In this document: positions 1 through 53,926 of the stretch, piece by piece
Position numbering within the stretch: the first letter of the stretch is position 1
How the letters are laid out: every line of letters starts with the position of its first letter
Source: Eledone cirrhosa
Taxonomy: Eukaryota
Length of the DNA stretch: 64,000 bases
Reading direction: 5' to 3'
Assembly: GCA_964016885.1 (NCBI GenBank)
Contig: OZ024741.1
Span: 11,284,001-11,348,000, forward strand
Made by a program: the position numbers and the translations under genes
The notes under the pieces: model-generated
Databases searched by the model: none
What the model saw: the letters and a program-made list of their open reading frames with translations, nothing else
Told to the model about the DNA's origin: nothing

Positions 1-39
<39 letters not shown>

Positions 40-540
40 TATATATATATATATATAGTATATATATATATATATATAGTATATATATATATATATATAG
101 TATATATATATATAGTATATAGTATATATATATATAGTATATATATATATATATAGTATATATATATATATATATAGTATATATAAATATAGTATATATA
201 TATATATATATATAGTATATATATATATGTATATAGTATATATATATATATATAGTATATATATATATATAGTATATATATATATATATATAGTATATAT
301 ATATATATATATATATATAGTATATATATATATATATATAGTATATATATATATATATATATAGTATATATATATATAGTATATAGTATATATAGTATAT
401 ATATATATAGTATATATATATATATATATAGTATATAGTATATATATATATATATATAGTATATATATATATATATATAGTATATAGTATATATATATAT
501 ATATATAGTATATAGTATATATATATATATATATATAGTA
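1..540. repeat. Interrupted microsatellite (TA)nG, runs off the window start
   Basis: TA runs of variable length punctuated by single G (TAG), always on the + strand. Confidence 0.95.
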
Positions 541-2040
541 TCATCATCATCATCATCATCACCGTTTTACGTCCGTTCTTCCACGCTAGCATGGGTTAGA
601 CGAGTTGTCCTGTTGTGGGCAGTGTCTGGTCGGCTGACCATGCCTTGCTCATACAGGAACTGATCTGGCTTGATTTCTACAGCTGGATGCCCTTCCTAAC
701 ACCAACCTCATTTACAGTGAGTGCTGGGTGCTTTTTCGTGGCGCCTACACGTCCACTTTACAGTGTGGGCTGGGTGCTTGTTTGCCGTGGCACCTCTACG
801 ACCACCTTGCGGTGGGGGGAGTGGGGGCATATTGTTTATATGCTTCAGCATGTACCCATGGGAGGTCGGGTACCCTGTATTACTGCGTGACGCCAGAAGT
901 CACGGTCGTGTGTCATTGTCTTTGAGAGGTGTAGTTGGGTAAGGTCAGCTTTTATCACCTCATCCCAAGTCATCTTGGGTCTCCCCACTCCGCGGTTTCC
1001 ATCAACTTCTAGTGCTCTGCACCTTTTTATGCAGCTGTCATCCTTCATACGCATCACATGTCCATACCAGCGTAACCGCCTCTCCTGCACGCAGCATTTG
1101 ATTCCTCTTATGCTCAGTCTCTCTCTCAATTCCTTTATGCTTTGTCGTTCACGTATATTACTGTTACACATCCATCGGAGCATGCAGGCTTCGTTTCTCT
1201 CTAATCTACGTAAGTCTTCCACCTTCAGCACCCAGGTCTCACTACCATGCAACATCGCTGTTCGGATACACGCATCATACAGTCTGCCTTTCATTCTGAG
1301 GGAGAAGCCTTTTGCAGCTAGCAGTGGTAGTAGTTCCCTAAACTTCTTCCATCCCGTTCTTACCCTAGTTATTGTACTTTCTGAGCACCCACCTCCGTTG
1401 CTAATTCGGTCACCTAGGTAGCAGAAGCTGTCTACTGTTTCTACAGGGCCCTCCCAGAGATTGGTGGTACTTGTTTCCTGTGGCTGTTTGCTTGCTGTTT
1501 CAGCACAGCTGCTGCATGTGAATCCTACATTCTTAATTAAGCTTCCTGAGATCCCGCTACATCTCTTGTGTACCCATTGTTTGCATTTGGGGCAGAGAAT
1601 GGAGTTCCTACCTACACCTTTCCTACATACTGAGCAAGGCCATTTCCCTGAGGGGATCTGGGTTCTGTTTTCTCGTCTACTTACAAGGACCTTAGTCTTT
1701 GTCATGTTGACTTTGAGGCCCTTTCTCTCTAGTCCCTGCTTCCAGGTTTGGAATTTATTCTCTAGTTCTACCAAAGATTCAGCTATGAGTGCGAGGTCAT
1801 CAGCATACAGGAGTTCCCATGGGCATCCGGTCTTAAACTCCTCCGTTATTGCCTGCAGGACTATGATGAACAGGAGAGGGCTAAGAACAGAGCCCTGGTG
1901 GACCCCAACCTGAACGCTAAATTCCTCGCTATACTCATTGCTAATCCTAACTTTGCTGACTGCTCCCCTATACATGGCTTGTACCGCTTTCACAAGCCAT
2001 TCATCTACTCCTAGTTTTCTAAGAGCCCACCAGATTACTG
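541..2040 (-). mobile_element. RTE-clade LINE, family A, 5'-truncated copy
   Basis: (TCA)n at 541-560 is a (TGA)n 3' tail. ORF 845..1993 has QGSVLSP and YADD. Near-identical to 2181-3674 and breaks off at ...CAGATTACTG. Confidence 0.95.
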
Positions 2041-2042
2041 TA

Positions 2043-2134
<92 letters not shown>

Positions 2135-2180
2135 ATATATATATGTAGTATATATATATATATATATGTAGTATATATAT
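2041..2180. repeat. (TA)nG tract with TGTAG variants
   Basis: Direct reading. Confidence 0.9.
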
Positions 2181-5100
2181 CATCATCATCATCATCACCG
2201 TTTTACGTCCGTTCTTCCACGCTAGCATGGGTTAGACGGGTTGTCCTGTTGTGGGCAGTGTCTGGTCGGCTGACCATGCCTTGCTCATACAGGAACTGAT
2301 CTGGCTTGATTTCTACAGCTGGATGCCCTTCCTAACACCAACCTCATTTACAGTGAGTGCTGGGTGCTTTTTCGTGGCGCCTACACGTCCACTTTACAGT
2401 GTGGGCTGGGTGCTTTTTTGCCGTGGCACCTCCACGACCACCTTGCGGTGGGGGGGGGGGGCATATTGTTTATATGCTTCAGCATGTACCCATGGGAGGT
2501 CGGGTACCCTGTATTACTGCGTGACGCCAGAAGTCACGGTCGTGTGTCATTGACTTTGAGAGGTGTAGTTGGGTAAGGTCGGCTTTTATCACCTCATCCC
2601 AAGTCATCTTGGGTCTCCCCACTCCGCGGTTTCCATCAACTTCTAGTGCTCTGCACCTTTTTATGCAGCTGTCATCCTTCATACGCATCACATGTCCATA
2701 CCAGCGTAACCGCCTCTCCTGCACGCAGCATTTGATTCCTCTTATGCTCAGTCTCTCTCTCAATTCATTTATGCTTTGTCGTTCACGTATATTACTGTTA
2801 CACATCCATCGGAGCATGCAGGCTTCGTTTCTCTCTAATCTACGTAAGTCTTCCACCTTCAGCGCCCAGGTCTCACTACCATGCAACATCGCTGTTCGGA
2901 TACACGCATCATACAGTCTGCCTTTCATTCTGAGGGAGAAGCCTTTTGCAGCTAGCAGTGGTAGTAGTTCCCTAAACTTCTTCCATCCCGTTCTTACCCT
3001 AGTTATTGTACTTTCTGAGCACCCACCTCCGTTGCTAATTCGGTCACCTAGGTAGCAGAAGCTGTCTACTGTTTCTACAGGGCCCTCCCAGAGATTGGTG
3101 GTACTTGTTTCCTGTGGCTGTTTGCTTGCTGTTTCAGCACAGCTGCTGCATGTGAATCCTACATTCTTAATTAAGCTTCCTGAGATCCCGCTACATCTCT
3201 TGTGTACCCATTGTTTGCATTTGGGGCAAAGAATGGAGTTCCTACCTACACCTTTCCTACATACTGAGCAAGGCCATTTCCCTGAGGGGATCTGGGTTCT
3301 GTTTTCTCGTCTACTTATAAGGACCTTAGTCTTTGTCATGTTGACTTTGAGGCCCTTTCTCTCTTGTCCCTGCTTCCAGGTTTGGAATTTATTCTCTAGT
3401 TCTACCATAGATTCAGCTATGAGTGCGAGGTCATCAGCATACAGGAGTTCCCATGGGCATCCGGTCTTAAACTCCTCCGTTATTGCCTGCAGGACTATGA
3501 TGAACAGGAGAGGGCTAAGAACAGAGCCCTGGTGGACCCCAACCTGTACGCTAAATTCCTCGCTATACTCATTGCTAATCCTAACTTTGCTGACTGCTCC
3601 CCTATACATGGCTTGTACCGCTTTCACAAGCCATTCATCTACTCCTAGTTTTCTAAGAGCCCACCAGATTACTGCACGTGGAACTCTGTCAAAGGCTTTC
3701 TCAAGGTCGACAAATGCCAAGTAGAGTGGCTTACTTTTAGCTAGGTACTTTTCCTGTAATTGCCTCACAAGGAAGAGCGCATCAGTGGTGCCTTTCCCTG
3801 GAACAAACCCAAATTGCATCTCGTCTATATTCACCCGGTCCCTAATCAGCTGTGCTATAACTCTTTCTGTTACTTTCATGACCTGGTCCATCAACTTTAT
3901 ACCTCTATAGTTTCCTCTATCTAGTGCATCGCCTTTACCTTTGTAGCAGTTGACAATGATGCTACTGCACCAATCTTTTGGTATGGCCCCCTCTAGTATT
4001 ACCTGGTTAACGATACGTGTGGTTATAGTGTGACCTACAGACCCAGATGCCTTCAGCATCTCGGCAGCTATACCCGATGGACCGGTTGCCTTCCCTATCT
4101 TCATATCTCTGATTGCCTTACTTACTACGCTGCCGCTGACTTGTACTGCTGGTCCCTCTATAGGGTCTACGTGGGGTAGGGTCTCTTCTTCCCATGCATT
4201 CTCCTCATTTAGTAATCTATCATAATGACTCTTCCATGCATCTTTCTTCTCAGCACTTGTGAGGGCAAGCTCACCTTTATCATTCCGGATACACTTCTCT
4301 CCAATGACATCACAACTATCTCTGACACACTGCCTCGCAATCTTGAATACCTCCTGTTTCTGGTCCTCACGTTGTAAAACATGCTTGAATTTTCTATCCT
4401 CTGCTTCCCTCCTAGCTAAGTATACTTGTCGCCTAGCTTCCCTCTTGGTCTCTATGTAATGTACCCTGCTCCCCCCGTTCTTCCATTCTTTCCATGCCTG
4501 TCTCTTGGCCTTGACTGCTTCATCTACCTTATTGTTCCACCACCAAGTCACTCTCCTCCTGCTTGAGGTCTTACTCCAGCCACAAACCTCATCCGTCGCC
4601 TCTAGTAAGTTATTTTTTAGGAACTCCCAGTTCTCTTCTACGTTAAATGTCTCTATCTGTTCTTCTTTACTGTCGTAGGCGTTGAGTAAAATATCTTTAA
4701 ATCTGTTACTGGTTGAGGGGACTTTCAGCTTCCAGATCTTTCTTCTCCAGGTTGGCCTCTGTTTCAGGGCTCGTCTAGTTCTGACCGTGAGGTCGCTGAC
4801 AACTAAGCTATGTTGGGATGTACATTCCTCACTAGGGAAGGCTTTTGTGTTTACGACCGTCCATCTGTCACGTCCTCTGATGAGGATAAAATCTAACTGA
4901 CTAGAGTGCTCCCCTGATCTATAGGTGATCAGGTGGTTGTCGGGTTTTTTAAAGTTTGTGTTACATATCGACATGTCATTGGCGTCGCAGAATTCTAGAA
5001 GTCTGAATCCTTCCTCATTCCTTGTGCCAACTCCATGGCCTCCATGTACTCTATTGAAGCCGTCGCAGTGTTTACCTACGTGTCCGTTAAAATCTCCTGC

Positions 5101-5783
5101 AATGATTAGGAAGTCCTTGTCGTCTGTTAGAGCAGTAGTGTGTATTAGGGACTCGTAAAACCTATCCTTAAGTTCGTCTGGCAGCCCCGATTGGGGTGCG
5201 TAAGCTGATATTATTGTGGTAATTGTCTTATTCAGGACTAGTCTGAGTTTAATGATTCTTGCATTTACCCTGTACACTGAGATTACTTTATCTACCCACT
5301 TGTCAGCTAATAGTATACCTACACCACCCATCCCATCGTCATTTCCCACCCAGAAAAATTTGTAGCACTGGCTTTTTCCTACAAGGACTCTAGCAGACCC
5401 TCCTCTCCATCTAGTCTCTTGCACACAGCATACATCAACTTCCTTTCGCTCTAGCATTTCTACGATTTCTCCTGCTCTTCCTTTCATTGAGCCTACATTG
5501 ATGGTACCAACTCGGAGTTTTGGGCATTTGTCGACACTCGTAGGGGAGGGTCTCTGGGTTGGCGCTTCACGTGGGTGCTTGGTAGCTCGCAGATTCATAT
5601 TTCATCTATTGATTCAGAGTTGCTCGTGTATTCCCAGCTCATCCATCCCTAACGGTGGGAAAATTGAGGGCTAGAAGGACAGTGGTGGTGGGGTAATGGC
5701 AGGGTGTGTTGGGATGCGCCAGAGGAGGAGAGAGTTAGTTAGGCAGGTAGTAGCAGCAGCAGCAGTGGAAATGGCATGCTAGG
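2181..5783 (-). mobile_element. RTE-clade LINE, family A, near full length
   Basis: Single APE+RT ORF, (TGA)n tail, ~185-bp 5' UTR; flanked by TATATGTAGTATATATAT at 2163-2180 and 5784-5801 (TSD). Confidence 0.95.
2479..5598 (-). CDS. Intact RTE ORF, 1039 aa: APE endonuclease + reverse transcriptase + PHD-like finger
   Basis: APE motifs GTINVG, VQETR, AYAPQ, GDFNG, LDFIL, SQH; RT motifs NYRGIKL, QFGF, FVDLEKAFDRV, QGSVLSP, YADD, YLG; no stops. Confidence 0.95.
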   Translation of the reverse strand: MNLRATKHPREAPTQRPSPTSVDKCPKLRVGTINVGSMKGRAGEIVEMLERKEVDVCCVQETRWRGGSARVLVGKSQCYKFFWVGNDDGMGGVGILLADKWVDKVISVYRVNARIIKLRLVLNKTITTIISAYAPQSGLPDELKDRFYESLIHTTALTDDKDFLIIAGDFNGHVGKHCDGFNRVHGGHGVGTRNEEGFRLLEFCDANDMSICNTNFKKPDNHLITYRSGEHSSQLDFILIRGRDRWTVVNTKAFPSEECTSQHSLVVSDLTVRTRRALKQRPTWRRKIWKLKVPSTSNRFKDILLNAYDSKEEQIETFNVEENWEFLKNNLLEATDEVCGWSKTSSRRRVTWWWNNKVDEAVKAKRQAWKEWKNGGSRVHYIETKREARRQVYLARREAEDRKFKHVLQREDQKQEVFKIARQCVRDSCDVIGEKCIRNDKGELALTSAEKKDAWKSHYDRLLNEENAWEEETLPHVDPIEGPAVQVSGSVVSKAIRDMKIGKATGPSGIAAEMLKASGSVGHTITTRIVNQVILEGAIPKDWCSSIIVNCYKGKGDALDRGNYRGIKLMDQVMKVTERVIAQLIRDRVNIDEMQFGFVPGKGTTDALFLVRQLQEKYLAKSKPLYLAFVDLEKAFDRVPRAVIWWALRKLGVDEWLVKAVQAMYRGAVSKVRISNEYSEEFSVQVGVHQGSVLSPLLFIIVLQAITEEFKTGCPWELLYADDLALIAESMVELENKFQTWKQGQERKGLKVNMTKTKVLISRRENRTQIPSGKWPCSVCRKGVGRNSILCPKCKQWVHKRCSGISGSLIKNVGFTCSSCAETASKQPQETSTTNLWEGPVETVDSFCYLGDRISNGGGCSESTITRVRTGWKKFRELLPLLAAKGFSLRMKGRLYDACIRTAMLHGSETWALKVEDLRRLERNEACMLRWMCNSNIRERQSINELRERLSIRGIKCCVQERRLRWYGHVMRMKDDSCIKRCRALEVDGNRGVGRPKMTWDEVIKADLTQLHLSKSMTHDRDFWRHAVIQGTRPPMGTC

Positions 5784-5945
5784 TATATGTAGTATATATA
5801 TATATATATATAGTATATATATATATATATATATAGTATATATATATATATATAGTATATATATATATATATATAGTATATATATATATATATATAGTAT
5901 ATATATATATATAGTATATATATATATATATATATAATATATATA
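5784..5945. repeat. (TA)nG tract
   Basis: Direct reading. Confidence 0.9.
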
Positions 5946-6054
5946 TCATCATCATCATCATCAACGTTTAACGTCCGTGTTCCACGCTTGCATGGGTTTG
6001 GACGGGGGTAGTCCCACTTGAGGCAAGAGTGATTGTCTTGCTCGCATAGGACTG
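5946..6054 (-). mobile_element. RTE family B, 3'-terminal fragment
   Basis: (TCA)n followed by sequence matching 11284-11398. Confidence 0.9.
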
Positions 6055-6061
6055 CATATAT

Positions 6062-6513
6062 ATAAAATATTAAAAAAATAATGAATAAAACAATGAAACA
6101 GTTCCTTATATTAAACAAAAAAAGTTCATTATTTAACGATAGTTTCTAGGATATATATGTGTTAGAATTGGCATGCATATTCAACAGATCTATGTACAAA
6201 ATTATACAAAATTATACAAACTATCAAAATTAAATATACATACCAACACATATATATGCCGTCTTCAGAAATAATCTAACACATATATATCCTAGAAACG
6301 ATCGTTAAATAATGAACTTTTTTTGTTTAATATAAGGAACTGTTTCATTGTTTTATTCATTATTTTTTTAATATTTTATCTTGACTCTGTATTCCGTTTA
6401 TCTTTCACCGAAAGTGATTTTTCATTGCATCTCTTCTTTCCATGATATCCGGATTACATTGAGTTCTTCATACGGATTGGACACTACCGTAAACTCTTGG
6501 TAGATTTATCTAC
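6062..6513. mobile_element. Penelope-like element (PLE) fragment with partial inverted pseudo-LTR
   Basis: ~105-bp inverted repeat (6062-6166 vs 6275-6379), embedded minimal hammerhead, both ends abut (TA)n. Confidence 0.7.
6129..6274 (-). ncRNA. Type I hammerhead ribozyme (PLE-type, long stem II)
   Basis: Minus strand reads TTATTT-CTGAAGA-[CGGCATATATATGTGTTGG...CTAACACATATATATCCTA]-GAAAC-TATC-GTT-AAATAA. Stem I is TTATTT/AAATAA. The inverted copy (6295-6312) keeps the palindromic GAAAC-GATC-GTT. Confidence 0.75.
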
Positions 6514-6661
6514 ATATATATATATATATTTATATATATATATATATATATAGTATATATATATATAGTATATATATATAGTATATATATATATATATAG
6601 TATATATATATATATAGTATATATATATATAGTATATATATATACGGGTAGTATATATATA
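6514..6661. repeat. (TA)nG tract
   Basis: Direct reading. Confidence 0.85.
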
Positions 6662-7144
6662 CAGTAGGCATCTCTATCAAAACACACCCCCGTCCCACCA
6701 CCTCCACCCCACCCACACCGCCCCTTTCAATGTAAAGTTATGTTGGTCCCACAACATCCAGGCCGAAACAAATGAGATCGTGTAGGTGTCACGACAAAAA
6801 ACACACAGTCCACACTGTAAATGTGGCCGTGTAGGCAACACGGTAAAAACCTCCCAGCCCCACACTGTAAATGTGGTTGGTGTTAGGAAAGGCATCCAGC
6901 TGTAGAAAACCCGCCAGACAGTCCACGCTGTAATGTGGCCGTGTAGGCAACACGGTAAAAACCTCCCAGCCCCACACTGTAAATGTGGTTGGTGTTAGGA
7001 AGGGCATCCAACTGTAGAAAACCCGCCAGACAGTCCTATGCGAGCAAGACAACCACTCTTGCCTCAAGTGGGAAAACCCCCGTCCAAACCCATGCAAGCG
7101 TGGAACACGGACGCTAAACCTGATGATGACGATGATGATGATGA
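6662..7144 (+). mobile_element. RTE family B, 3' UTR fragment with ~114-bp internal duplication
   Basis: Ends in (TGA)n; reverse complement of 8356-8838. Confidence 0.9.
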
Positions 7145-7207
7145 TATATATATATATATATATAGTATATATATATATAGTATATATATATATATATATA
7201 TATATAG

Positions 7208-7814
7208 TCAGGTCACCACTTGGTGCTACTGGTAACATGTATCCCAGTACAACCTGTCTCATGGTCGGGTCGTTGGCGACTAAACTGGCAACCCCACCAA
7301 GGTTTCTTTGTGAGGAGGGTGACTTTGGACATCCTGCAGGACTAAAAACAAAACCTGTCAAAGAGCAAAGGAGCTCTTAAGAGTCAATGGCCATCCAAAA
7401 TCACTGGGAGAGATGACCCCTTAGCCTTTGCCAAGGCAGAATTCTAGGAGAAGGAAAACTCTGATATAACACCTGCAACCCTGATGGTATCCAATGATGT
7501 TGACGTGTTCTTCTTTTTGGTAAATATCATCTTGGTTAAGAGAGTGGGACTGGCTTTGTGCAGTGCCTTTGCTCACTATAAAAGCTTCACGGCACAGGCA
7601 TTGCTTTATATCTGGAGATCTCCCTGCACTTGTCGTCACATGGTACCATGGGCCCAGCACTAAGTGTCAATAATTGTCACAAGTGTAGTGTTTGTACCAG
7701 AGTTTTCAGGTCGCAGGCTGGACTAAAATGTCACACTCGTTCAGCGCATCGGTAAGGGTTCTCCTACATGGATATAAAGTAGTGGCCGTACTCGAAAACG
7801 AGTTGGCAGCCACC
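7208..7814 (+). mobile_element. ~600-bp bipartite non-autonomous RTE-derived element, copy 1
   Basis: 5' part resembles RTE/BovB-type 5' UTRs (AGGAGAAGGAAAACTCTGA). 3' part encodes CSVCTRVFRSQAGLKCHTRSAHR* (7684-7755), the C2H2 end of RTE ORFs. Three copies in the window. Confidence 0.75.
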
Positions 7815-8355
7815 ATATATAGTATATATATATATATATAGTATATATATATATATATAGTATATATATATATATATAGTATATATATATATATATAGTA
7901 TATATATATATATATATTATATATATATATATATATAGTATATATATATATATATAGTATATATATATATATATATATAGTATATATATATATATATAGT
8001 ATATATATATATAGTGTATATATATATATATAGTGTATATATATATATATAGTGTATATATATATATATATATATAGTATATATATATATATATAGTATA
8101 TATATATATATATAGTATATATATATATATAGTATATATATATATAGTATATATATATATATAGTATATATATATATATATATAGTGTATATATATATAT
8201 ATAGTGTATATATATATATATATAGTGTATATATATATATATAGTGTATATATATATATATATATAGTATATATATATATATATAGTGTATATATATATA
8301 TATATATATAGTATATATATATATATATATAGTATATATATATATATATAGTATA
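7815..8355. repeat. (TA)nG tract with local TAGTG variant
   Basis: Direct reading. Confidence 0.9.
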
Positions 8356-10312
8356 TCATCATCATCATCATCATCATCAGGTTTAGCGTCCGTGTTCCAC
8401 GCTTGCATGGGTTTGGACGGGGGTTTTCCCACTTGAGGCAAGAGTGGTTGTCTTGCTCGCATAGGACTGTCTGGCGGGTTTTCTACAGTTGGATGCCCTT
8501 CCTAACACCAACCACATTTACAGTGTGGGGCTGGGAGGTTTTTACCGTGTTGCCTACACGGCCACATTACAGCGTGGACTGTCTGGCGGGTTTTCTACAG
8601 CTGGATGCCCTTCCTAACACCAACCACATTTACAGTGTGGGGCTGGGAGGTTTTTACCGTGTTGCCTACACGGCCACATTTACAGCGTGGACTGTGTGTT
8701 TTTTGTCGTGACACCTACACAATCTCATTTGTTTCGGCCTGGATGTTGTGGGACCAACATAACTTTACATTGAAAGGGGCGGTGTGGGTGGGGTGGAGGT
8801 GGTGGGACGGGGGTGTGTTTTGATAGAGGTGCCTACTGACTGTAGTAGGTTTTTACTTTGTATTTAGGTAAGGCGGGTCTTCTCTATTACTGAGTACCGC
8901 CAAAGGTCTCGGTCCAGTGACATTGTCTTGGAGAGGTGTAAGCGTGTGAGGTCGGAATTTATCAGCTCGTCCCATGTTTTTCTGGGTCTGCCTACTCCGT
9001 GGCTACCGTCTATCTTTATTGCCCTGCACTTTGTTATACAGCTGTCGTCTTTCATGCGCATCACGTGACCGTACCAACGTAGCCTTCTCTCGAGTAAACA
9101 ACATCTGATCCCTCTTATTTCTAATTTTTTCCTTAGTTCGTTTATGCTTTGCCGTTCACGTATATTACTATTGCACATCCAGCGGAGCATGCAAGCTTCG
9201 TTCCTCTCTAGTCTGCGTATATCCTCTGCACACAATGCCCAGGTCTCACTGCCATGCAGCATTGCTGTTCGTATGCAGGCATCGTATAACCTGCCTTTCA
9301 TTTTTAGGGAGAACCCTCTAGCGGCTAATAGTGGTATATGCTCTCTGAACTTTTTCCATCCAGTTCTGACTCTAGCTACTGTACTTTCAGAGCACCCTCC
9401 CCCACTGCTGATTTTGTCACCCAGATAACGGAAGCTGTCCACTATTTCTATAGAACCCTCTGCGCAGTTGAAGGAGCTAGTATTTTGTGGGCACTTGCTG
9501 CTACTTATTGCACCAGAGCACCGGCCACATGTAAAATCTATGTTCTTAGTTAGCTTACCTGTGATCCCACTACATCTTTTATGCACCCATACTTTGCATT
9601 TGGGACATAAAATGGAGTTTCTACCTACGCCTTTCCTACACACTGAGCATGGCCATTTCCCCGATGGGACCGCCGCCTTATTTTCTTTCCTACAAACTAG
9701 AACTTTAGTCTTAGCCAGGTTAATTTTAAGGCCTTTTGATTCTAGGCCGTGCTTCCACGTTTGGAATTTCTTCTCTAGTTCGGTCATTGATTCAGCTATG
9801 AGCGTTAGATCATCTGCGTATAGGAGTTCCCATGGGCAGCCGGTCTTGAACTCCTCTGTTATAGCCTGAAGGGCAATAATAAATAGTAGGGGGCTAAGTA
9901 CAGAGCCCTGATGGACACCAACTTTTACGCTAAACTCTTCACTATATTCGTTGTTAATTCTAACCTTACTGACTGTTTCTTTATACATGGCTTGTATAGC
10001 TCTCACAAGCCATTCGTCAACACCTAGTTTTCTAAGAGACCACCAGATAATGGAACGGGGGACTCTGTCGAAGGCTTTCTCCAAGTCGACGAAAGCTAAG
10101 TATAGGGGTTTACTTTTAGCTAGGTACTTCTCCTGTAGTTGTCGTACAATGAAAAGAGCGTCTGTGGTACTTTTGCCTGACACAAATCCGAACTGCATTT
10201 CATCTAGATCAATTCTCTCTCTGATTAGTTGCGCTATTACTTTTTCCGTGACCTTCATGACCTGGTCGATTAATTTAATGCCTCTATAGTTACTCCTATC
10301 TAGGGCATCTCC
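8356..10312 (-). mobile_element. RTE family B, 5'-truncated (RT + PHD-like finger + C-terminus; ORF 8864..10258)
   Basis: (TGA)n tail; FVDLEKAFD, QGSVLSP, YADD; protein clearly related to but distinct from family A. Confidence 0.95.
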
Positions 10313-10582
10313 GTAGTATATATATATATATATATATAGTATATATATATATATATAGTATATATATATATATATAGTATATATATATATAGTATATATA
10401 TATATATATATAGTATATATATATATATATAGTATATATATATATATATATATAGTATATATATATATAGTATATATATATATATATAGTATATATATAT
10501 ATAGTATATATATATATATATAGTATATATATATATAGTATATATATATATATAGAATATATATATAGTATATATATATATA

Positions 10583-10616
<34 letters not shown>
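10313..10616. repeat. (TA)nG tract
   Basis: Direct reading. Confidence 0.9.
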
Positions 10617-10618
<2 letters not shown>

Positions 10619-11224
10619 AGGTCACCACTTGGTGCTACTGGTAACATGTATCCCAGTACAACCTGTCTCATGGTCGGGTCGTTGGCGACTAAACTGGCAA
10701 CCCCACCAAGGTTTCTTGGTGAGGAGGGTGACTTTGGACATCCTGCAGGACTAAAAACAAAACCTGTCAAAGGGCAAAGGAGCTCTTAAGAGTCAATGGC
10801 CATCCAAAATCACTGGGAGAGATGACCCCTTAGCCTTTGTCAAGGCAGAATTCTAGGAGAAGGAACACTCTGATATAACACCTGCAACCCTGATGGTATC
10901 CAATGATGTTGACTTGTTCTTCTTTTTGGTAAATATCATCTTGGTTAAGAGAGTGGGACTGGCTTTGTGCAGTGCCTCTGCTCACTATAAAAGCTTCACG
11001 GCACAGGCATTGCTTTATATCTGGAGATCTCTCTGCACTTGTCGTTACATAGTACCAAAGGCAAAGCACTATGTGTCAATAATTGTCACAAGTGTAGTGT
11101 TTGTACCAGAGTTTTCAAGTCGCAGGCTGGACTAAAAAGTCACACTCGTTCAGCGCATCGGTAGGGGTTCTCCTACATGGATATAAAGTAGTGGCCGTAC
11201 TCGAAAACGAGTTGGCAGCCACCA
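10617..11224 (+). mobile_element. Bipartite non-autonomous RTE-derived element, copy 2
   Basis: Colinear with 7208-7814; finger reads CSVCTRVFKSQAGLKSHTRSAHR*. Confidence 0.75.
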
Positions 11225-11232
11225 TATATATA

Positions 11233-11283
<51 letters not shown>

Positions 11284-11286
<3 letters not shown>

Positions 11287-14079
11287 TCATCATCATCATC
11301 ATCATCAACGTTTAACGTCCGTGTTCCACGCTTGCATGGGTTTGGACGGGGGTAGTCCCACTTGAGGCAAGAGTGATTGTCTTGCTCGCATAGGACTGTC
11401 TGGCAGGTTTTCTACAGTTGGATGCCCTTCCTAACACCAACCACATTTACAGTGTGGGTCTGGGAGGTTTTTACCGTGTTGCCTACACGGCCACATTACA
11501 GCGTGGACTGTGTGTTTTTTTGTCGTGACACCTACACGATCTCATTTGTTTCGGCCTCGATGGCGCGGCACCAACATAACTTTACATAGAACGGGGTGGT
11601 GTGGATCGGGTGGGGGTGGTGGGACGGGGTGTATTTGTTAGAGATGCCTACTGGCTGGAGTAGGTTTTACTATATATTTAGGTAAGGCAGGTCTTCTCTG
11701 TTACTGAGTACCGCCAAAGGTCTCGGTCCAGTGACATTGTCTTGGAGAGGTGTAAGTGTGTGATGTCGGAGTTTATCAGCTCGTCCCAGGTTTTTCTAGG
11801 TCTGCCTATTCCGTGACTACCGTCTATCTTTATTGCCCTGCACTTTGTTATACAGCTATCGACTTTCATGCGCATCACGTGTCCATACCAACGTAGCCTT
11901 CTCTCGAGTAAACAACATCTGATCCCTCTTATCTCTAATTTATTCCTTAGTTCGTTTATGCTTTGCCGTTCACGTATATTACTGTTACACATCCAGCGGA
12001 GCATGCAAGCTTCGTTCCTCTCTAGTCTGCGTATATCCTCTGCACACAATGCCCAGGTCTCACTGCCATGCAGCATTGCTGTTCGTATGCAGGCATCGTA
12101 CAACCTGCCTTTCATTTTTAGTGAGAACCCTTTAGCAGCTAATAGTGGTATAAGCTCTCTGAACTTTTTCCAACCAGTTCTGACTCTAGCTACAGTACTT
12201 TCAGAGCACCCTCCCCCACTGCTGATTTTATCGCCCAGGTAACGGAAGCTGTCCACTATTTCTATAGAACCCTCTGCGCAATTGAAAGAGCTAGTAGTTT
12301 GTGGGCACTTGCTGCTACTTATTGCACCAGAGCACCGGCCACATGTAAAATCTATGTTCTTAGTTAGCCTACCTGTGATCCCACTACATCTTTTATGCAC
12401 CCATACTTTGCATTTAGGACATAAAATGGAGTTTCTACCTACGCCTTTCCTACACACCGAGCACGACCATTTCCCAGAAGGGACCGCCGCCTTGTTTTCT
12501 TTCCTACAAACTAGTACTTTGGTCTTAGCCAGGTTAATTTTAAGTCCTTTTGACTCTAGGCCGTGCTTCCATGTTTGGAATTTCTTCTCTAGCTCGGCCA
12601 TTGATTCCGCTATGAGTGTCAGGTCGTCTGCGTATAGGAGTTCCCATGGGAAGCCTGTCTTGAACTCCTCTGTTATGGCCTGAAGGGCAATAATAAATAG
12701 TAGTGGACTGAGAACAGAGCCCTGATGGACGCCGACTTTTACGCTAAACTCTTCACTATATTCGTTGTTAATTCTAACCTTGCTGACTGTTTCTTTATAC
12801 ATGGCTTGTATAGCCCTCACAAGCCATTCGTCAACGCCTAGTTTTCTAAGAGCCCACCAGATAATGGAGCGGGGGACTCTGTCGAAGGCTTTCTCCAAGT
12901 CGACAAAAGCTAAGTAGAGGGGTTTACCTTTAGCTAGGTACTTCTCTTGTAGTTGTCGTACTATGAAAAGAGCGTCTGTGGTACTTTTGCCTGACACAAA
13001 CCCGAACTGCATTTCATCTAGGTCAATTCTCTCTCTGATTAGTTGCGCTATTACTCTTTCCGTGACCTTCATGACCTGGTCGATTAATTTAATGCCTCTA
13101 TAGTTACTCCTATCTAGGGCGTCTCCTTTACCCTTATAACAGTTAACGATGATGCTGCTATGCCAGTCCTTCGGAACAACCCCGTTTTGTACGACTTGGT
13201 TAACTATGCGGGTGACCATGGTGTGTCCCACCGTGCCAGATGCCTTCAGCATCTCAGCAACTATTTCCGAAGGCCCAGCCGCCTTACCAGTCTTCATATC
13301 CTTGATTGCCTTACTTATTATACTCCCCTCGACTAACACTGCTGGTCCCTCTATTGGGTCGATATGGGGGAGACTGCCTTTCTCCCAATTATTCTCCTCA
13401 TTTAGAAGCCTTTCATAGTGACACTTCCAAGCTACCTTCTTATCAGCGTCGGTGATGGCAAGTGTGCCATCGTCGTTTAGTACACACTTCTCCCCGACAA
13501 TATCACGGTTTTCCTTGACGCATTGCCTAGCAATCCTGAACACCTCACGTTTTTGGTCATCGCGTTGTAGAACATGCTTGAACTTTCTTTCCTCAGCTTC
13601 CCTTCTTGCTAAGTACACTTGTCTCCTAGCTTCCCTCCTGGCCACTTGATAGTCCTCTCTACTTCCCCCATCCCGCCATACTTTCCAAGCCTGCTTTTTG
13701 GCCTTAATTGACCCCTCCACCTTACTGTTCCACCACCATGTTACTCTCCTCCTGCCTACAGGCCTGCTCCAGCCACAGACCTCGTCTGTCGCCAACAGCA
13801 GGTTTGCTTTCAGAAATTCCCACTCTCCCTCTATATTGTCCGACTCTAAATGTTCTTCCTTACTGTCGAAAGCATCAAGTAATATGCTTTGAAATTTATT
13901 CCTGGCTGTGGGGTCCTTTAGCTTCCATATTTTCCTCCTGAGGATAGTCCTCTTCTGTTGTCGAGTACGTCTCGTCCTGACTATGAGGTCGCTAATTATC
14001 AGTCTATGTTGGGAGGTGCATTCTTCATGGGGGAGGGATTTAGTGTTAACAACAGACACTCTGTCACGTCTTCTGGTAA

Positions 14080-14081
<2 letters not shown>
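11284..14081 (-). mobile_element. RTE family B, 5'-truncated within the APE domain (open ORF 11678..14059)
   Basis: (TGA)n tail; 793-aa uninterrupted frame with all RT motifs. Confidence 0.95.
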
Positions 14082-14123
<42 letters not shown>

Positions 14124-14403
14124 TATATATATATATATATATACTATATATATATAGTATATATATATATATATATATAGTATATATATATATATATAGT
14201 ATATATATATATATATAGTATATATATATATATATAGTATATATATATATATATAGTATATATATATATATATAGTATATATATATATATATAGTATATA
14301 TATATATATAGTATATATATATATATATAGTATATATATATATATATAGTATATATATATATATATAGTATATATATATATATAGTATATATATATATAT
14401 ATC

Positions 14404-14457
<54 letters not shown>

Positions 14458-14507
14458 TATATATATATATATAGTATATATATATATATATATAGTATAT
14501 ATATATT
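14082..14507. repeat. (TA)nG tract with a short inverted (TAC) segment
   Basis: C interruptions at 14123 and 14144, G interruptions from 14157. Confidence 0.9.
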
Positions 14508-14805
14508 ATCATCATCATCATCATCAACGTTTAACGTCCGTGTTCTACGCTTGCATGGGTTTGGACAGGGGTTTTCCCACTTGAGGCAAGAGTGATTGTC
14601 TTGCTCGCATAGGACTGTCTGGCAGGTTTTCTACAGTTGGATGCCCTTCCTAACACCAACCACATTTACAGTGTGGGTCTGGGAGGTTTTTACCGTGTTG
14701 CCTACACGGCCACATTACAGCGTGGACTGTGTGTTTTTTTGTCGTGACACCTACACAATCTCATTTGTTTCGGCCTGGATGGTGTGGTACCAACATAACT
14801 TTACA
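14508..14805 (-). mobile_element. RTE family B, 3' UTR fragment
   Basis: (TCA)n plus match to 11284-11586. Confidence 0.9.
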
Positions 14806-14806
14806 A

Positions 14807-16320
14807 CTGCATCAGTTGTTAGCTGTGGAGACACTGCATCCTTTAAAACCTCCATGGAACAAACTCCCTGCATCAGTTGTTAGCTGTCGAGACACTGCAT
14901 CCTTTAAAACCTCCATGGAGCAAACTACCTGCATCAGTTGTTAGCTGTCGACACACTGCATCCTTTAAAACCTCCATGGAACAAACTCCCTGCATCAGTT
15001 GTTAGCTGTCGAGACACTGCATCCTTTAAAACCTCCATGGAACAAACTCCCTGCATCAGTTGTTAGCTGTGGAGACACTGCATCCTTTAAAACCTCCATG
15101 GAACAAACTCCCTGCATCAGTTGTTAGCTGTCGAGACACTGCATCCTTTAAAACCTCCATGGAACAAACTCCCTGCATCAGTTGTTAGCTGTCGAGACAC
15201 TGCATCCTTTAAAACCTCCATGGAACAAACTCCCTGCATCAGTTGTTAGCTGTCGAGACACTGCATCTTTTAAAACTTCCATGGAGCAAACTCCCTGCAT
15301 CAGTTGTTAGCTGTGGAGACACTGCATCCTTTAAAACCTCCATGGAACAAACTCCCTGCATCAGTTGTTAGCTGTCGAGACACTGCATCCTTTAAAACCT
15401 CCATGGAACAAACTCCCTGCATCAGTTGTTAGCTGTTGAGACACTGCATCCTTTAAAACCTCCATGGAACAAACTCCCTGCATCAGTTGTTAGCTGTCGA
15501 GACACTGCATACTTTAAAACCTCTATGGAACAAACTCCCTGTATCAGTTGTTAGCTGTCGAGACACTGCATCCTTTAAAACCTCCATGGAACAAACTCCC
15601 TTCATCAGTTGTTAGCTGTCGAGACACTGCATCCTTTAAAACCTCCATGGAGCAAACTACCTGCATCAGTTGTTAGCTGTCGAGACACTGCATCCTTTAA
15701 AACCTCCATGGAACAAACTCCCTGCATCAGTTGTTAGCTGTCGAGACACTGCATCCTTTAAAACCTCCATGGAACAAACTCCCTGCATCAGTTGTTAGCT
15801 GTCGGGACACTGCATCCTTTAAAACCTCCATGGAACAAACTCCCTGCATCAGTTGTTAGCTGTCGAGACACTGCATCCTTTAAAACCTCCATGGAACAAA
15901 CTCCCTGCATCAGTTGTTAGCTGTCGAGACACTGCATCCTTTAAAACCTCCATGGAACAAACTCCCTTCATCAGTTGTTAGCTGTCGAGACACTGCATCC
16001 TTTAAAACCTCCATGGAGCAAACTACCTGCATCAGTTGTTAGCTGTCGAGACACTGCATCCTTTAAAACCTCCATGGAACAAACTCCCTGCATCAGTTGT
16101 TAGCTGTCGAGACACTGCATCCTTTAAAACCTCCATGGAACAAACTCCCTGCATCAGTTGTTAGCTGTCGGGACACTGCATCCTTTAAAACCTCCATGGA
16201 ACAAACTCCCTGCATCAGTTGTTAGCTGTCGAGACACTGCATCCTTTAAAACCTCCATGGAACAAACTCCCTGCATCAGTTGTTAGCTGTCGAGACACTG
16301 CATCCTTTAAAACCTCCATG
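14807..16320 (+). repeat. 61-bp minisatellite, ~25 copies, derived from the CR1-group ORF2 C-terminus
   Basis: Unit GGAACAAACTCCCTGCATCAGTTGTTAGCTGTCGAGACACTGCATCCTTTAAAACCTCCAT matches the reverse complement of ~25565-25628. Confidence 0.95.
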
Positions 16321-16508
16321 ATTCCTGAGATTCGCCAACACTACACCTGATATTCCCCCTCCATACACATACACACATGTATATCATGACTCATACACTG
16401 CTCACTTTCCTGACATTTGTACATTATTCTATGTTCTATACATGCACCTTTGATGAGTTGTAGTGAACCTGAGCACTGTACACAATAATTTAATTATTAT
16501 TATTATTA
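16321..16508 (+). mobile_element. CR1-group LINE 3' end (ORF2 stop, 3' UTR, (ATT)n tail)
   Basis: Matches the reverse complement of 25366-25563. Confidence 0.9.
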
Positions 16509-16836
16509 TACTGTAAAGTGGTCGTTGTTATCAAGTAGTCAGCCGTAGAATCCATGCCAAAAATAGAATGTGTGAGCACCTGACTAGTCTACCCTTAAAA
16601 CATGACAACCTGTCTAATTCATATAAAAACAATAACTGGTATAAGGTGAGGGCCTCTCTCTGGTCACTCAACCTGTTAGTAATAGCAGCCAAATCTCCTT
16701 CAAATCACACATTACCATCTTTAAAAACAGCAAAGATACATTGGACAATATATTTCTAGACATAGAAAAAGATAGGACGATCATAGTTGGAATGACTTTC
16801 ACTGTAGGTCTGATTATTAAGGGCTGAGCTGACACT

Positions 16837-43200: not shown

Positions 43201-43392
43201 ACATGTACTAAACAATACTATAACTACATCACATGTACTAAACAGTACTATGACTACATCACACCAAATATGTACTAAACAGTACTATGACTACATCACA
43301 TGTACTAAACAGTACTATAAATACATCACATGTGCTAAACAGTACTATAACTACATCACATGTACTAAACAATACTATAAATACATCACATC
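34210..43392. repeat. 30-bp satellite, ~300 units, with 37-bp variant units
   Basis: Unit TGTACTAAACAGTACTATGACTACATCACA; recurrent 7-bp insert (C/T)CAAATA. Confidence 0.97.
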
Positions 43393-44383: not shown

Positions 44384-44578
44384 CTCGTATACAAGAGACG
44401 TGTGTTGACGTGTGTGAACAAGCTCGGCTACCGAGTTGGATTTACTTACTCAAAAGTGAGTTTTGATTAATTTTTTTATACTGTAATATACGTTAACTCC
44501 TTGCCTTGGTCGTCAAACTTTGAGTTTATTTATTTTCGAATTTTCCAGTTAAAAATTTATTACGGCAAACTAATAGAA

Positions 44579-46013: not shown

Positions 46014-46159
46014 AACGTTTCCCCACCCACACCTCACCAAACACCCCCACCCCACCACAGAACAACACCCCACCAAACAACCCCTCCAATACACCCATGG
46101 ATATTGAGCAACCTGCTCCTCAAGAGCCGAACAGGTAGGTCCTTCCTCTTTTAACCAAC

Positions 46160-49100: not shown

Positions 49101-49358
49101 TTCAAAAACGAAGGAGAGGCGGTTTTTCTCTGTGTGATAGCCATGGCTAAAGAAGTTGTATGGTGGACGAGACTGAAAGGGCTGAGGTCAGACACCTTTC
49201 TCTCCGGCCAACAACTGGTCCCCTTTTTCAAATACCATTTTAAAAGAAGGATCAGAATGGAGAGAGGGGTGCTCTACCCCAGCAAGTTTTATGAAAGGTG
49301 GGTGAAAGTAGGGAGAATGGCCAGAGTGAATGGGTCTTCTCTCTATATCAGCCTGTAG
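46160..49358 (+). pseudogene. Tx1-type ORF2 (APE + RT + C-terminal CCHC), two in-frame stops and an internal RT deletion
   Basis: LNVRGL, GDWN, LDR, SDH, GYWKLN, KSPGLDGLP, FRPITLLN, YADD, CPRC..ETVAHAFVHC; DxxKAFD-to-QG segment missing at ~47910. Confidence 0.9.
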
Positions 49359-49753: not shown

Positions 49754-52700
49754 CACATTTATTTTGTTACCCTCATTTTCTCTACCATGCTGCCTCTCTA
49801 TCTGTCTATTTTGCCATCAAAGGCTACAGGCCATGACTTGGCTATCTACCTCACAATTTCCCTCACACCACCATAGCCTATTCGACCAATCAAACCTCAG
49901 CATGCCCCCCCTCCCACTACCAACCCCAACAAACCCTGCCATTTCTACTACTACCTAACTCTCTCCTCCCCCGTCCCAGCCCAACACACCCTGCCATTAT
50001 CACCACCACGACTGTTCTTCTAGCCCTGAATTTTCCTACCGTTATGTATGGATGAGCTGAGAATAAATTGGAGCAACTCTGAATTAATAGATGAAATGAA
50101 TATGATTCCGCAAGCTACCAAGCACCCATGTGAAGCCCCAATCCAGAGACAGGAAGCGCACACACACACCTCTGCAAAAATCGACCCTTCCCTATGAATG
50201 TCAAAACTCCAAGTTGGTACCATCAATGTAAGCACAATGAAAGGAAGAGCAGGAGAAATCGTAGAAATGCTAGAGCAAAAGGAAATTGACGTATGCTGTG
50301 TGCAAGAGACTAGATGGAGAGGAGAGTCTGCTAGAGTCCTTGTAGGAAAAAGTCAGTGCTACAAATTTTTCTGGGTGGGAAATGACGATGGGATGGGTGG
50401 TGTAGGTATACTACTAGCTGACAAGTGGGTAGATAAAGTAATCTCAGTGTACAGGGTAAATGCAAGAATCATTAAACTCAGACTAGTCCTGAATAAAACA
50501 ATTACCACAATAATATCAGCTTACGCACCCCAATCGGGGTTGCCAGACGAACTTAAGGATAGGTTTTACGAGTCCCTAATGCACACTACTGCTCTAACAA
50601 ACGACAATGACTTCCTAATCATCGCAGGAGATTTTAACGGACACGTAGGTAAACACTGTGATGGCTTCAATAGAGTCCATGGAGACCATGGGGTTGGCAC
50701 AAGAAATGAAGAAGGATTCCGACTTCTAGAATTCTGCGACGCCAATGACATGTCGATATGTAACACAAACTTCAAAAAGCCCGACAACCACATGATCACC
50801 TATAGATCAGGGGAGCATTCTAGTCAGATAGATGTTATCCTCATCAGAGGACGTGACAGATGGACGGTTGTAAACACAAAAGCCTACCCTAGTGAGGAAT
50901 GTACCTCCCAACATAGCTTAGTTGTCAGCGACCTCACGGTCAGAACTAGACGAACCTGGAAACAGAGGCCAACCTGGAGAAGAAAGATCTGGAAGCTGAA
51001 AGACCCCTCAGCCAGTAACAGATTTAAAGATATTTTACTCAACGCCTATGACAGTAAAGAAGAACAGATAGAGACATTCAATGTAGAAGAGCACTGGGAG
51101 TTCCTAAAAAATAACTTACTAGAGGCGATGGATGAGATCTGTAGCTGGAGTAAGACCACAAGCAGGAGGAGAGTGACTTGGTGGTGGAACAATAAGGTAG
51201 ATGAGGCAGTTAAGGCCAAGAGACAGGCATGGAAAGAATGGAAGAACGGGGGGAGCAGGGTACATTACATAGAGACCAAGAGGGAAGCTAGGCGACAAGT
51301 TTACTTAGCTAGGAGGGAAGCAGAGGAGTCAAAATTCAAGCATGTTTTGCAACATGAGGACCAGAAACAAGAGGTGTTCAAGATTGCAAGGCAGTGTGTC
51401 AGAGAGAATTGTGATGTCATTGGAGAGAAGTGTATCCGGAATGATAAGGGTGAGCTTGCCTTCACAAGTGCTGCGAAGAAAGATGTATGGAAGAGCCATT
51501 ATGATAGATTACTAAATGAGGAGAATGCATGGGAAGAAGAGACCCTACCCCAAGTAGACTCTATAGAGGGGCCAGCAGTACAAGTCAGCAGCAGCATAGT
51601 AAGTAAGGCAATCAAAGATATGAAGATGGGGAAGGCAACCGGTCCATCGGGTATAGCTGCCAAGATGTTGAAGGCATCTGGGTCTGTGGGTCACACTATA
51701 ACCACACGTATTGTTAACCAGGTAATACTAGAAGGTGTCATACCAAAAGATTGGTGCAGTAGCATCATTGTCAACTGCTACAAAGGTAAAGGTGATGCAC
51801 TAGATAGAGGAAACTATAGAGGTATAAAGCTGATGGACCAGGTCATGAAAGTAACAGAAAGAGTTATTGCACAGTTGATTAGGGACCGGGTGAAACTAGA
51901 TGAGATGCAATTTGGGTTTGTACCAGGAAGAGGTACCACTGATGCCCTCTTCCTTGTGAGGCAGTTACAGGAAAAGTACCTAGCTAAAAGTAAGCCACTC
52001 TACCTGGCATTCGTCGATCTCGTGGGCTCTTAGAAAACTAGGAGTAGATGAATGGCTTGTGAAAGCTGTACAAGCCATGTATAGGGGAGCAGTCAGCAAA
52101 GTTAGGATTAGCAATGAGTATAGCGAGGAATTTAGCGTACAGGTTGGGGTCCACCAGGGCTCTGTTCTTAGCCCTCTCCTGTTCATCATAGTCCTCCAGG
52201 CAATAACGGAGGAGTTTAAGACCGGATGCCCATGGGAACTCCTGTAAGCTGATGACCTTGCACTTATAGCTGAATCTATGGTAGAACTGGAGAAGAAATT
52301 TCAAACTTGGAAGCAGGGACTAGAAAGAAAGAAAGGGTCTCAAAGTCAACATGACAAAGACTAAGGTTCTTGTAAGTAGATGAGAAAACAAAACCCATAT
52401 TCCCTCAGGGAAATGGCCTTGCTCAGTATGTAGGAAAGGTGTAGGTAGGAACTTCATTCTCTGCTCCAAATGCAAACAATGGGTACACAAGAGATGTAGC
52501 GGGATCTCAGGAAGCTTAACTAAGAATGTAGGCTTCACATGTAGCAGCTGTGCTGGGACAGCAAGCAGCAAACAGCCACAGGAAACAAGTACCACCAATC
52601 TCTGGGAGGGCTCTGTAGAAACAGTAGACAGCTTCTTCTACCTAGGTGACCAAATTAGCAGCAGAGGTGGGTGTTCAGAAAGTACAATAACTAGGGTAAG

Positions 52701-53358
52701 AACGGGATGGAAGAAGTTCAGGGAACTACTGCCACTGCTAGCTGCAAAAGGCTTCTCCCTCAAAATGAAAGGCAGACTGTATGATGCGTGTTTCCGCACA
52801 GCAATGTTACATGGTAGTGAGACCTGGGTGCTGAAGGTGGAAGACTTACGTAGATTAGAAAGAAATGAAGCCTGCATGCTCCGATGGATGTGTAATAGTA
52901 ATATACGCGAACGATAAAGCATAAAGTCAATGGAAACCGCGGAGTGGGGAGACCCAAGAAGACCTGGGATGAGGTGATAAAAGCTGACCTTACTCAATTA
53001 CACCTCTCAAAGGCGATGACACACGACCGTGACCTCTGGTGTCACTCAGTAATACAGAGTACCCGACCTCCCATGGGTACAAGGTGAAGCATTAGACAAT
53101 ATGCCCCCACACCCTCCCACGGCAAAAAAGGACCCAGCCCACACTGTAAAGTGGACGTGTAGGCGCCACGAAAAAGCACCCAGCACTCACTGTAAATGAG
53201 ATTGGTGTTAGGAAGGGCATCCAGCTGTAGAAATCAAGCCAAAATCAGTTCGTGAATGAGCAATGCATGGTCAGCCGACCAGACACTGCCCACAACAGGA
53301 CAACCCGTCTAACCCATGCTAGCATGGAAGAACGGATGTAAAACGGTGATGATGATGA
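49754..53358 (+). mobile_element. RTE family A, long-5'-UTR copy, decayed (ORF 50198..52033 then broken)
   Basis: Colinear with the reverse complement of 2181-5783; deletions at ~52020 and ~52925; (GAT)n tail; splits the TATATATA of a 72-bp unit. Confidence 0.93.
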
Positions 53359-53926
53359 TACTATTGTATTTTCACAGTAAAGGGTTTACCTCACATAATA
53401 TCTCACATAACATTTACATTACTCTATATATACTATTGTATTTTTATGGTATTTTTATCTTACACTAGCAGAATGGCCTGGCGTTGCTCGGGATTCTAAA
53501 CATAGATTGGCATGTTTATCCCTCCTTTCAGAAACACTACAGAGAAGTACGGAATACCTCGGCCTGGGGATGATGTCTACATTTTGTGCTTATAAAAGAA
53601 GTTTGTTGTAGATTACCAGGGGTGTAACTTAATTGGGTGCCTGAGAGTAAAATGTTCAACCCACGAAAGCCAAGACGATAGGGTTAAGTAAAAAGGCATT
53701 TGACAAACCGAACATGTATTTGTTGTGCTATGGTACAATGAAAGAAATAGTTACAGAGCAGTAAGCATGTGGGACTGCAGTGGTGGAGAGCATGAAGGAA
53801 TTTAGTTGGATACTTTTAATGTTACAGGCCCTAACGCAACCAAAATGCTAAACAATGCGGTCCCTGGGCAAAAATTTGAATTCTTTTTCAGTCAAAAAAA
53901 TTTGTGAAACAAGTAATGCATATGCA

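What the first reader, a model, noticed from the sequence alone, without database searches (positions are those of the whole stretch)
1..14805. Polarised (TA)nG microsatellite used as a landing pad by at least 10 retroelements
Seen: remove the inserts and ~2.5 kb of (TA)nG remains, with G essentially always on the + strand. Seven RTE A/B copies, two bipartite RTE derivatives and a PLE fragment sit in it. RTE tails join at ...TA|TCATCA, and TSDs are readable (TATATGTAGTATATATAT around 2181-5783; TAGTA(TA) around 541-2040 and 8356-10312). The family A copy at 49754 independently splits the only TATATATA of a 72-bp satellite unit. Known: microsatellite or telomere-repeat specificity is established for several non-LTR lineages (Waldo, Mino, Kibi/Koshi, Dong, SART/TRAS), whereas RTE-clade APE elements are usually treated as weakly specific. 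Inference: a TA-specific RTE lineage plus passengers building a nested array.
Basis: partly seen in the sequence, partly recalled or inferred. Interest (0 to 1): 0.75.

Follow-up and report, generated by a model that had tools for sequence, protein, structure and literature searches.

The report
TA-seeking LINEs piled in a microsatellite
Ten separate retroelement copies sit in one long TA repeat; half of the sampled copies of the two main families land in TA repeats elsewhere in this genome too, likely because their cutting and priming step favours short TATA runs, so the pile-up is a dense example of a general preference, not a dedicated landing pad.

Summary
The anatomy is right: 2,360 bp of (TA)nG (122 G, 4 C on +) split by seven RTE-type LINE copies, two 608-bp non-coding retroposons and a Penelope-like fragment, all independent insertions. 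The TA preference holds elsewhere: 55 of 109 sampled family A/B copies have a TA-microsatellite 3' flank, against 4.0% background and 3 of 30 for a CR1-type control; the 5' flank is TA as often, so the TA predates insertion. It is a preference, not specificity: 54 of 109 lie elsewhere, and a 4-6-bp TATA(TA) preference fits the data. The G polarity plays no part: orientation splits 9:6 against it, polarity flips upstream, and multi-kb (TA)nG arrays are common, mostly with few inserts. Local density exceeds that of other arrays but matches the flanking region. Closest known: the Tn-TA signature of RTE LINEs. The endonuclease shows the plant-RTE-type D229Q and short loop; the RT carries an inserted PHD finger. 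This scan found the same TA-seeking families before on other DNA of this genome.

The parts
1..14506 (+). Interrupted (TA)nG microsatellite, nine tracts, 2,360 bp, units mostly 15-23 bp; continues to about -21,200 upstream with a C-polarity block
541..2040 (-). Family A RTE-type LINE, 5'-truncated, (TGA)n tail, TSD ATACTA (sense)
2181..5783 (-). Family A copy with an open 1040-aa frame (2479-5601): APE endonuclease, RT, PHD finger inserted before the YLG motif; truncated inside the 5' UTR; 18-bp TSD
5947..6054 (-). Family B 3' stub (108 bp) next to the Penelope-like fragment
6055..6513 (.). Penelope-pLTR/retrozyme-like fragment with internal inversion; hammerhead-like motif read by eye on the minus strand (about 6128-6276); 2,754 exact matches genome-wide; 9 of 10 sampled start directly in (TA)n
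   Evidence: Rfam and Pfam gave no confirmation
6662..7143 (+). Family B 3' fragment in the opposite orientation
7207..7814 (+). Element X, 608-bp non-coding retroposon; 23,448 exact 3'-end matches
8356..10312 (-). Family B, 5'-truncated, RT and PHD, 112-bp duplication in the 3' UTR, TSD ATATACTA (sense)
10616..11223 (+). Element X, second copy (97.2% to the first)
11285..14081 (-). Family B, 5'-truncated, RT and PHD
14507..14805 (-). Family B 3' stub; TA on its 3' side only, 5' end abuts a CR1-derived 61-bp tandem
49755..53369 (+). Older family A copy (91.7% to 2181-5783), broken frame, inserted in the TATATATA of a 72-bp unit with a 3-4-bp TSD

Best explanation
The array is a long TA microsatellite that took independent insertions from two very abundant RTE-type LINE families whose copies favour alternating-TA sites elsewhere in the genome too, likely because their endonuclease nicks at T|A inside a short TATA(TA) run and the (UGA)n RNA tail pairs with the first base or two to prime reverse transcription. 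Shown: independence, TA on both flanks, short TSDs starting at the last A of the tail and mostly preceded by T, no link to the G. Inferred: the nick chemistry and the priming. The G polarity is ordinary head-to-tail amplification of one interruption (inferred). X, the Penelope-like fragment, SINEs and a LINE fragment upstream use the same TA-rich substrate. The extra local density is likely a property of this repeat-dense chromosome region.
For: TA-microsatellite 3' flank (at least 15 of 20 nt in phase): A 14/30 and 25/52, B 18/30, X 24/30, CR1-type control 3/30, background 4.0% (bootstrap 1.6-7.1%); A+B vs control odds ratio 9.2, p=5e-5. With both junctions resolved, the 5' flank is TA in 34 of 53 A/B copies and only 2 of 53 are 3'-only; the interrupting base agrees on both sides in 17 of 21. 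Outside microsatellites 15 of 54 sites start TATA vs 0.9% background, and a TSD of 4 nt or more anchored at the tail's last A occurs in 10 of 23 vs 4.1 in shuffled pairings, preceded by T in 7 of 10. Given a TATAT or TATATA start, microsatellite sites are no more frequent than background (p=0.32, 0.79). All 14 array copies have a dispersed copy as close as or closer than any array copy. Orientation vs G: 9:6, p=0.61. Endonuclease catalytic motifs are present.
Against: A bare TpA or TAT preference does not explain the enrichment (p=3e-19, 4e-9), so the known two-base signature is not enough; the conditional test is partly circular for long prefixes. This array holds 14 A/B/X 3' ends in 9.25 kb of TA (1.5/kb) against 17 in 101 kb at 16 other (TA)nG loci (0.17/kb) and about 0.25/kb genome-wide (Poisson p about 1e-7; 0.004 with a 2.6-fold regional factor), which sequence preference alone does not explain. 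13 of 23 non-microsatellite sites had no anchored TSD of 4 nt or more. A/B samples come from contig C1 only, and 60 of them from its first 2.1 Mb. No biochemical test.
Confidence: 0.72

Rival explanations
1. A truly microsatellite-specific RTE lineage recognises long (TA)n tracts (for example as cruciform or flexible DNA), possibly helped by the PHD finger tethering it to repeat-dense chromatin; the other copies are leakage.
For: About 12-fold enrichment over background; two-base preference rejected; lineage-wide D229Q and short hairpin loop (55 and 52 of 57 homologues with an endonuclease) and PHD insert (120 of 120 with YADD); clumped pile-ups (25 of 31 inserts at 2 of 17 arrays).
Against: Half the copies lie outside microsatellites; short TATA starts are about 30-fold enriched there; no excess of long tracts once TATAT is given; uninterrupted 3-6 kb tracts exist. 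The PHD role is untested.
Confidence: 0.15
2. TA tracts are generic fragile or tolerated sites; any retroelement accumulates there by break repair or retention, without element-encoded preference.
For: Unrelated passengers share the array (X, Penelope-like fragments, SINEs, a LINE fragment); 13 of 23 non-microsatellite sites lack a clear TSD.
Against: The CR1-type family of the same genome is at 3/30, not above background (p=0.12), and 16 of 19 have neither flank TA; A/B TSDs are phased on the tail's last A.
Confidence: 0.08
3. The array is a product of local duplication of one or two insertions, or the TA grew out of the element tails.
For: The order X-TA-B occurs twice; B 8356 and an upstream B copy are 100% identical over 376 bp. 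X is 3'-only TA in 10 of 30, so it may partly carry its own AT/ATGT tail.
Against: Dispersed copies are equally close; every A/B copy has its own 5' truncation; the two B copies after X are only 94% alike while the X copies are 97%; 5' flanks are TA as often as 3' flanks for A/B.
Confidence: 0.05

Closest known systems
RTE-clade LINEs and SINEs with the Tn-TA insertion signature (plant RTE/Au SINE, Bov-B/Sauria SINE; PMC6007223 part 1 of 6 and passages; PMC13295347 passages)
   Same: Single APE+RT frame, microsatellite tail, TSD starting at a T|A step and matching the tail base; D229Q and a hairpin loop two residues shorter than L1, described there for plant RTEs.
   Different: Here half the copies are in TA microsatellites and the preference spans about 4-6 alternating bases; TSDs are often short (4-18 bp); a PHD finger sits inside the RT; the upstream T stretch was not tested.
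Microsatellite-specific non-LTR elements Waldo, Mino, Kibi/Koshi, Dong (recalled, from no call)
   Same: Non-LTR elements found in simple repeats.
   Different: Those are strictly site-specific R1, Tx1 or RLE-clade elements; A/B are promiscuous, with 54 of 109 copies elsewhere.
SaTar and MuTAnT Mutator-like elements (PMC5907723 abstract; PMC4486113 search listing)
   Same: Non-nested linear arrays of unrelated elements built inside microsatellites; MuTAnT targets TA.
   Different: DNA transposons of plants, not retroelements.
Naiad/Neptune Penelope-like elements with (TA)n bias (PMC8557442 passages)
   Same: TA-microsatellite insertion bias; a likely parallel for the 6055-6513 passenger.
   Different: GIY-YIG endonuclease, different class; Naiads lack hammerheads.
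Lepidopteran RTEs that generate microsatellites from their tails (PMC2887409 passages)
   Same: RTE copies beside simple repeats.
   Different: There the repeat comes from the tail and insertion is called non-specific; here the TA predates insertion.

Membership tests
RTE clade LINE (families A, B) | One frame with APE endonuclease plus RT | tested here: met
   1040-aa frame, PF03372/PF14529 and PF00078; the long repeated 5' UTR was not scanned for frames
RTE clade LINE (families A, B) | 3' end in short tandem repeats | tested here: met
   (TGA)n tails of about 1-10 units
RTE clade LINE (families A, B) | Short 3' UTR | tested here: inconclusive
   About 290 nt in A (2185-2478); 14 nt in HmRTE-e01, about 600 in RTE-2_OV
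RTE clade LINE (families A, B) | RT phylogeny within the RTE clade | not testable with these tools
   No named RTE reference was available; homologues are unnamed, PDB holds only L1 and R2. The clade call rests on anatomy and recalled C-terminal motifs
Tn-TA signature RTEs | TSD begins at the A of a T|A step | tested here: met
   10 of 23 non-microsatellite sites vs 4.1 shuffled; T before the TSD in 7 of 10, 23 of 31 overall
Tn-TA signature RTEs | T stretch about 10 nt upstream of the TSD | not tested
   Too few clear TSDs outside microsatellites
Site-specific microsatellite-targeting non-LTR elements (Waldo, Mino, Kibi/Koshi, Dong) | Nearly all copies in one repeat at one phase | tested here: not met
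   55 of 109 in TA tracts, of many local variants; both orientations
Bipartite non-autonomous RTE (element X) | 5' and 3' parts homologous to an autonomous RTE | tested here: inconclusive
   No hit to A/B or to 121 RTE-type proteins; no autonomous partner in 1.4 Mb held; definition from PMC5786205 passages
Penelope-like pLTR / retrozyme (6055-6513) | Hammerhead motif, inverted pLTR, link to an RT+GIY-YIG frame | tested here: inconclusive
   Motif read by eye around a long hairpin (z -6.5, whose fold does not form the ribozyme stems); inversions in relatives and PLE-like frames near 2 of 10 loci; Rfam and Pfam silent

The most novel reading that the evidence does not exclude
Families A and B belong to a widespread RTE sublineage (D229Q, short hairpin loop, PHD finger inserted in the RT) whose endonuclease is tuned to alternating TA and whose PHD finger tethers it to repeat-dense chromatin: a microsatellite-seeking, chromatin-guided RTE that uses the 4% of the genome that is TA repeat as a safe haven and builds pile-ups.
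Probability: 0.2. Interest if true: 0.62.

Novelty: new variant of a known kind. Interest (0 to 1): 0.36.

Why it matters
RTE LINEs are described as having only a weak TpA-centred signature. Here tens of thousands of young copies show a much stronger alternating-TA bias, and open frames exist, so the link between endonuclease loop, RNA tail and target choice becomes testable in one family. It also shows how TA-rich genomes pile retroelements into simple repeats. The locus itself, and its G polarity, are ordinary.

Tried and rejected
G polarity as a targeting cue: rejected (9:6; polarity flips upstream; other sites carry C, G, AA or TT variants). Local duplication: rejected. Tail-seeded TA for A/B: rejected. 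Two- or three-base preference alone: rejected. A DNA search of the own genome with the A 3' end returned nothing because common words are skipped; exact patterns were used. A direct genome-wide count of TA-flanked junctions could not be run, so flank numbers are samples. Rfam at 5900-7900 gave only chance hits. Pfam did not name the frames beside the Penelope-like fragment. No autonomous partner of X was found. One search used 15 inserts for this array by miscount; one search repeats it with 14. Paper searches that found no report of a (TA)n-seeking RTE or of a PHD inside an RTE RT; Repbase and supplements were not seen and may hold such reports. No structure or complex was predicted.
Full report
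Observation. The window is G000:C2:11284001-11348000 of a 3.0-Gb genome; the organism was not established. In 1-14805 nine TA tracts total 2,360 bp and carry 122 G and 4 C on the + strand. Ten inserts separate them: two family A and five family B LINE copies (A and B are about 75% alike), two copies of a 608-bp element X and a 460-bp Penelope-like fragment. Six A/B copies are on the minus strand, one on the plus. They lie side by side; none interrupts another. The array continues to about 21 kb upstream, with five more A/B copies, SINE-like and LINE fragments, and about 2.5 kb of tract in the opposite polarity.

The elements. The copy at 2181-5783 has an open 1040-aa frame with APE endonuclease, RT and a PHD finger. 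The PHD lies between the YADD motif and the YLG motif; 120 of the 120 proteins with YADD held here (the query and homologues, whose query region included the PHD) carry it. Against L1 ORF2 the catalytic endonuclease residues are present, the residue before the last His is Q and the hairpin loop is two residues shorter; 55 and 52 of 57 proteins with an endonuclease share these. Nishiyama and Ohshima describe both features for plant RTEs (PMC6007223, passages). Exact patterns give 14,015 A 3' ends, 17,101 B, 23,448 X, 2,754 Penelope-like and 547 A copies reaching the 5' UTR. The RTE label rests on anatomy and recalled motifs, not on a tree.

Independence. Each of the 14 array copies tested has a dispersed copy as close as or closer than any array copy, and each A/B copy has its own 5' truncation. 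Local duplication is rejected.

Preference elsewhere in the genome. A flank was scored TA if at least 15 of 20 bases were in phase with (TA)n. Background in 20 random 10-kb stretches of C1 and C2 is 4.0% (bootstrap 1.6-7.1%). 3' flanks: A 14 of 30 (first 30 of 14,015), A long copies 25 of 52 (60 of 547 fetched along C1, 8 dropped for lack of a 3' end), B 18 of 30, X 24 of 30, a CR1-type control 3 of 30 (CR1 label by recalled motif). After dropping three rows with identical flanks (one true duplicate, two pure TA), A+B is 55 of 109; odds ratio against the control 9.2, p=5e-5. Both junctions were resolved for 53 A/B copies: both TA 25, 5' only 9, 3' only 2, neither 17 (the 5' window could slide 6 nt). 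The interrupting base matches on both sides in 17 of 21 informative sites. So the TA was there first. X is 3'-only in 10 of 30, so it may partly bring its own tail.

How long a motif. Among sites starting TA, 43 of 67 are microsatellite against 15.5% expected; starting TAT, 40 of 59 against 30.6%; TATA, 39 of 54 against 58.6% (p=0.03); TATAT and TATATA fit background (p=0.32, 0.79). Outside microsatellites 15 of 54 sites start TATA against 0.9%. A preference for about 4-6 alternating bases in a genome that is 4% TA repeat fits; a two-base one does not. The test is partly circular for long prefixes. Of 49 resolved copies (four of 53 left out as inverted or doubtful), 23 are outside microsatellites; 10 have a TSD of 4 nt or more starting at the last A of the (TGA)n tail, against 4.1 in shuffled pairings (0 of 2000 reached 10), with T before it in 7; 13 have none. 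This matches the T|A part of the Tn-TA signature (PMC6007223; PMC13295347, passages). Nicking at T|A and tail-assisted priming are inferred.

Polarity. A three-unit (TA)9G pattern matches 279 times on both strands at many loci. At this array and 16 others, A/B sense flanks carry the G variant 9 times and the C variant 6 times (p=0.61). Dispersed sites carry other interruptions. One-strand polarity follows from tandem amplification of an asymmetric unit (inference) and does not guide insertion.

Is it a hotspot? This array has 14 A/B/X 3' ends in 9.25 kb of TA; 16 other (TA)nG loci have 17 in 101 kb, 11 of them at C1:292.39 Mb. That is above the genome average of about 0.25 per kb of TA (Poisson about 1e-7; 0.004 with a 2.6-fold regional factor). 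But the 18 kb upstream of the array holds 6 A/B 3' ends, the same per kb of DNA as the array's 12 in 36 kb, about 30 times the exact-match genome average. Region, array age and selection of a dense window are the likely causes; chromatin tethering by the PHD is not excluded.

Passengers. The 6055-6513 fragment starts directly in (TA)n in 9 of 10 sampled loci; (TA)n bias is known for some Penelope-like clades (PMC8557442, passages). Its hammerhead-like motif was read by eye; Rfam and Pfam did not confirm the class. X showed no homology to A, B or RTE proteins, so 'bipartite RTE derivative' (PMC5786205, passages) is unverified.

Comparison and verdict. It works like a strengthened RTE Tn-TA preference and builds non-nested arrays like plant SaTar elements (PMC5907723, abstract). 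It is not a member of the strictly microsatellite-specific lineages (names recalled). Searches found no report of a (TA)n-seeking RTE; Repbase and supplementary files were not seen. RTE-2_OV (PMC9115989, section 6 and passages) is described with a C2H2 finger, and no target preference appears in the passages seen. Earlier notes of this scan reach the same reading on other DNA of this genome; they are not independent evidence. New variant of a known kind; interest 0.36.

Noticed in passing
window 44385-49594 (+); loci L237-L266: An L1/Tx1-type LINE (APE, RT, zf-RVT) with 55 exact 3'-end matches. All 30 sampled copies are followed at the same base by the 72-bp repeat unit; the window copy and truncated L265 have that unit at the 5' junction too. 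Likely a strictly site-specific element targeting this repeat, like Tx1L in Tx1D (recalled).
   Followed up: partly
window 3139-3268 region of the A frame (residues 778-821); P0002-P0121: PHD finger (C4HC3) inserted inside the RT before the YLG motif, conserved across the homologues held; no paper found describing it.
   Followed up: partly
L127-L186, upstream of the A frame: The family A 5' UTR is built of long tandem repeats; many copies run more than 1.3 kb upstream without a resolved start.
   Followed up: partly
window 14807-16510: The 61-bp tandem (25 copies) is an amplified piece of the 3' end of the CR1-type LINE seen at 25560-25640, followed by its 3' UTR and (ATT)n tail.
   Followed up: no
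window 20563-21660: A third RTE-type 3' end whose 48-bp 3' UTR motif is amplified 14 times.
   Followed up: no
G000:C1:292393001-292423000 (L270-L272): A second (TA)nG pile-up with nine B copies in both orientations and repeated polarity switches inside tracts.
   Followed up: partly
window 14082-14145; L032 tract at -13639..-13200: Short runs of reversed (C) polarity inside G tracts next to element junctions, possibly fold-back or inversion within the palindromic TA.
   Followed up: no
L031, about 3770-1370 bases upstream of the window: A 2.4-kb unidentified insert between TA tracts with a long T run.
   Followed up: no
window 17005-18809, 34210-43391, 53928-64000: Large satellites of 33, 30 and 22 bp; more follow beyond the window (19, 56, 61 bp), marking a satellite-rich region.
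   Followed up: no
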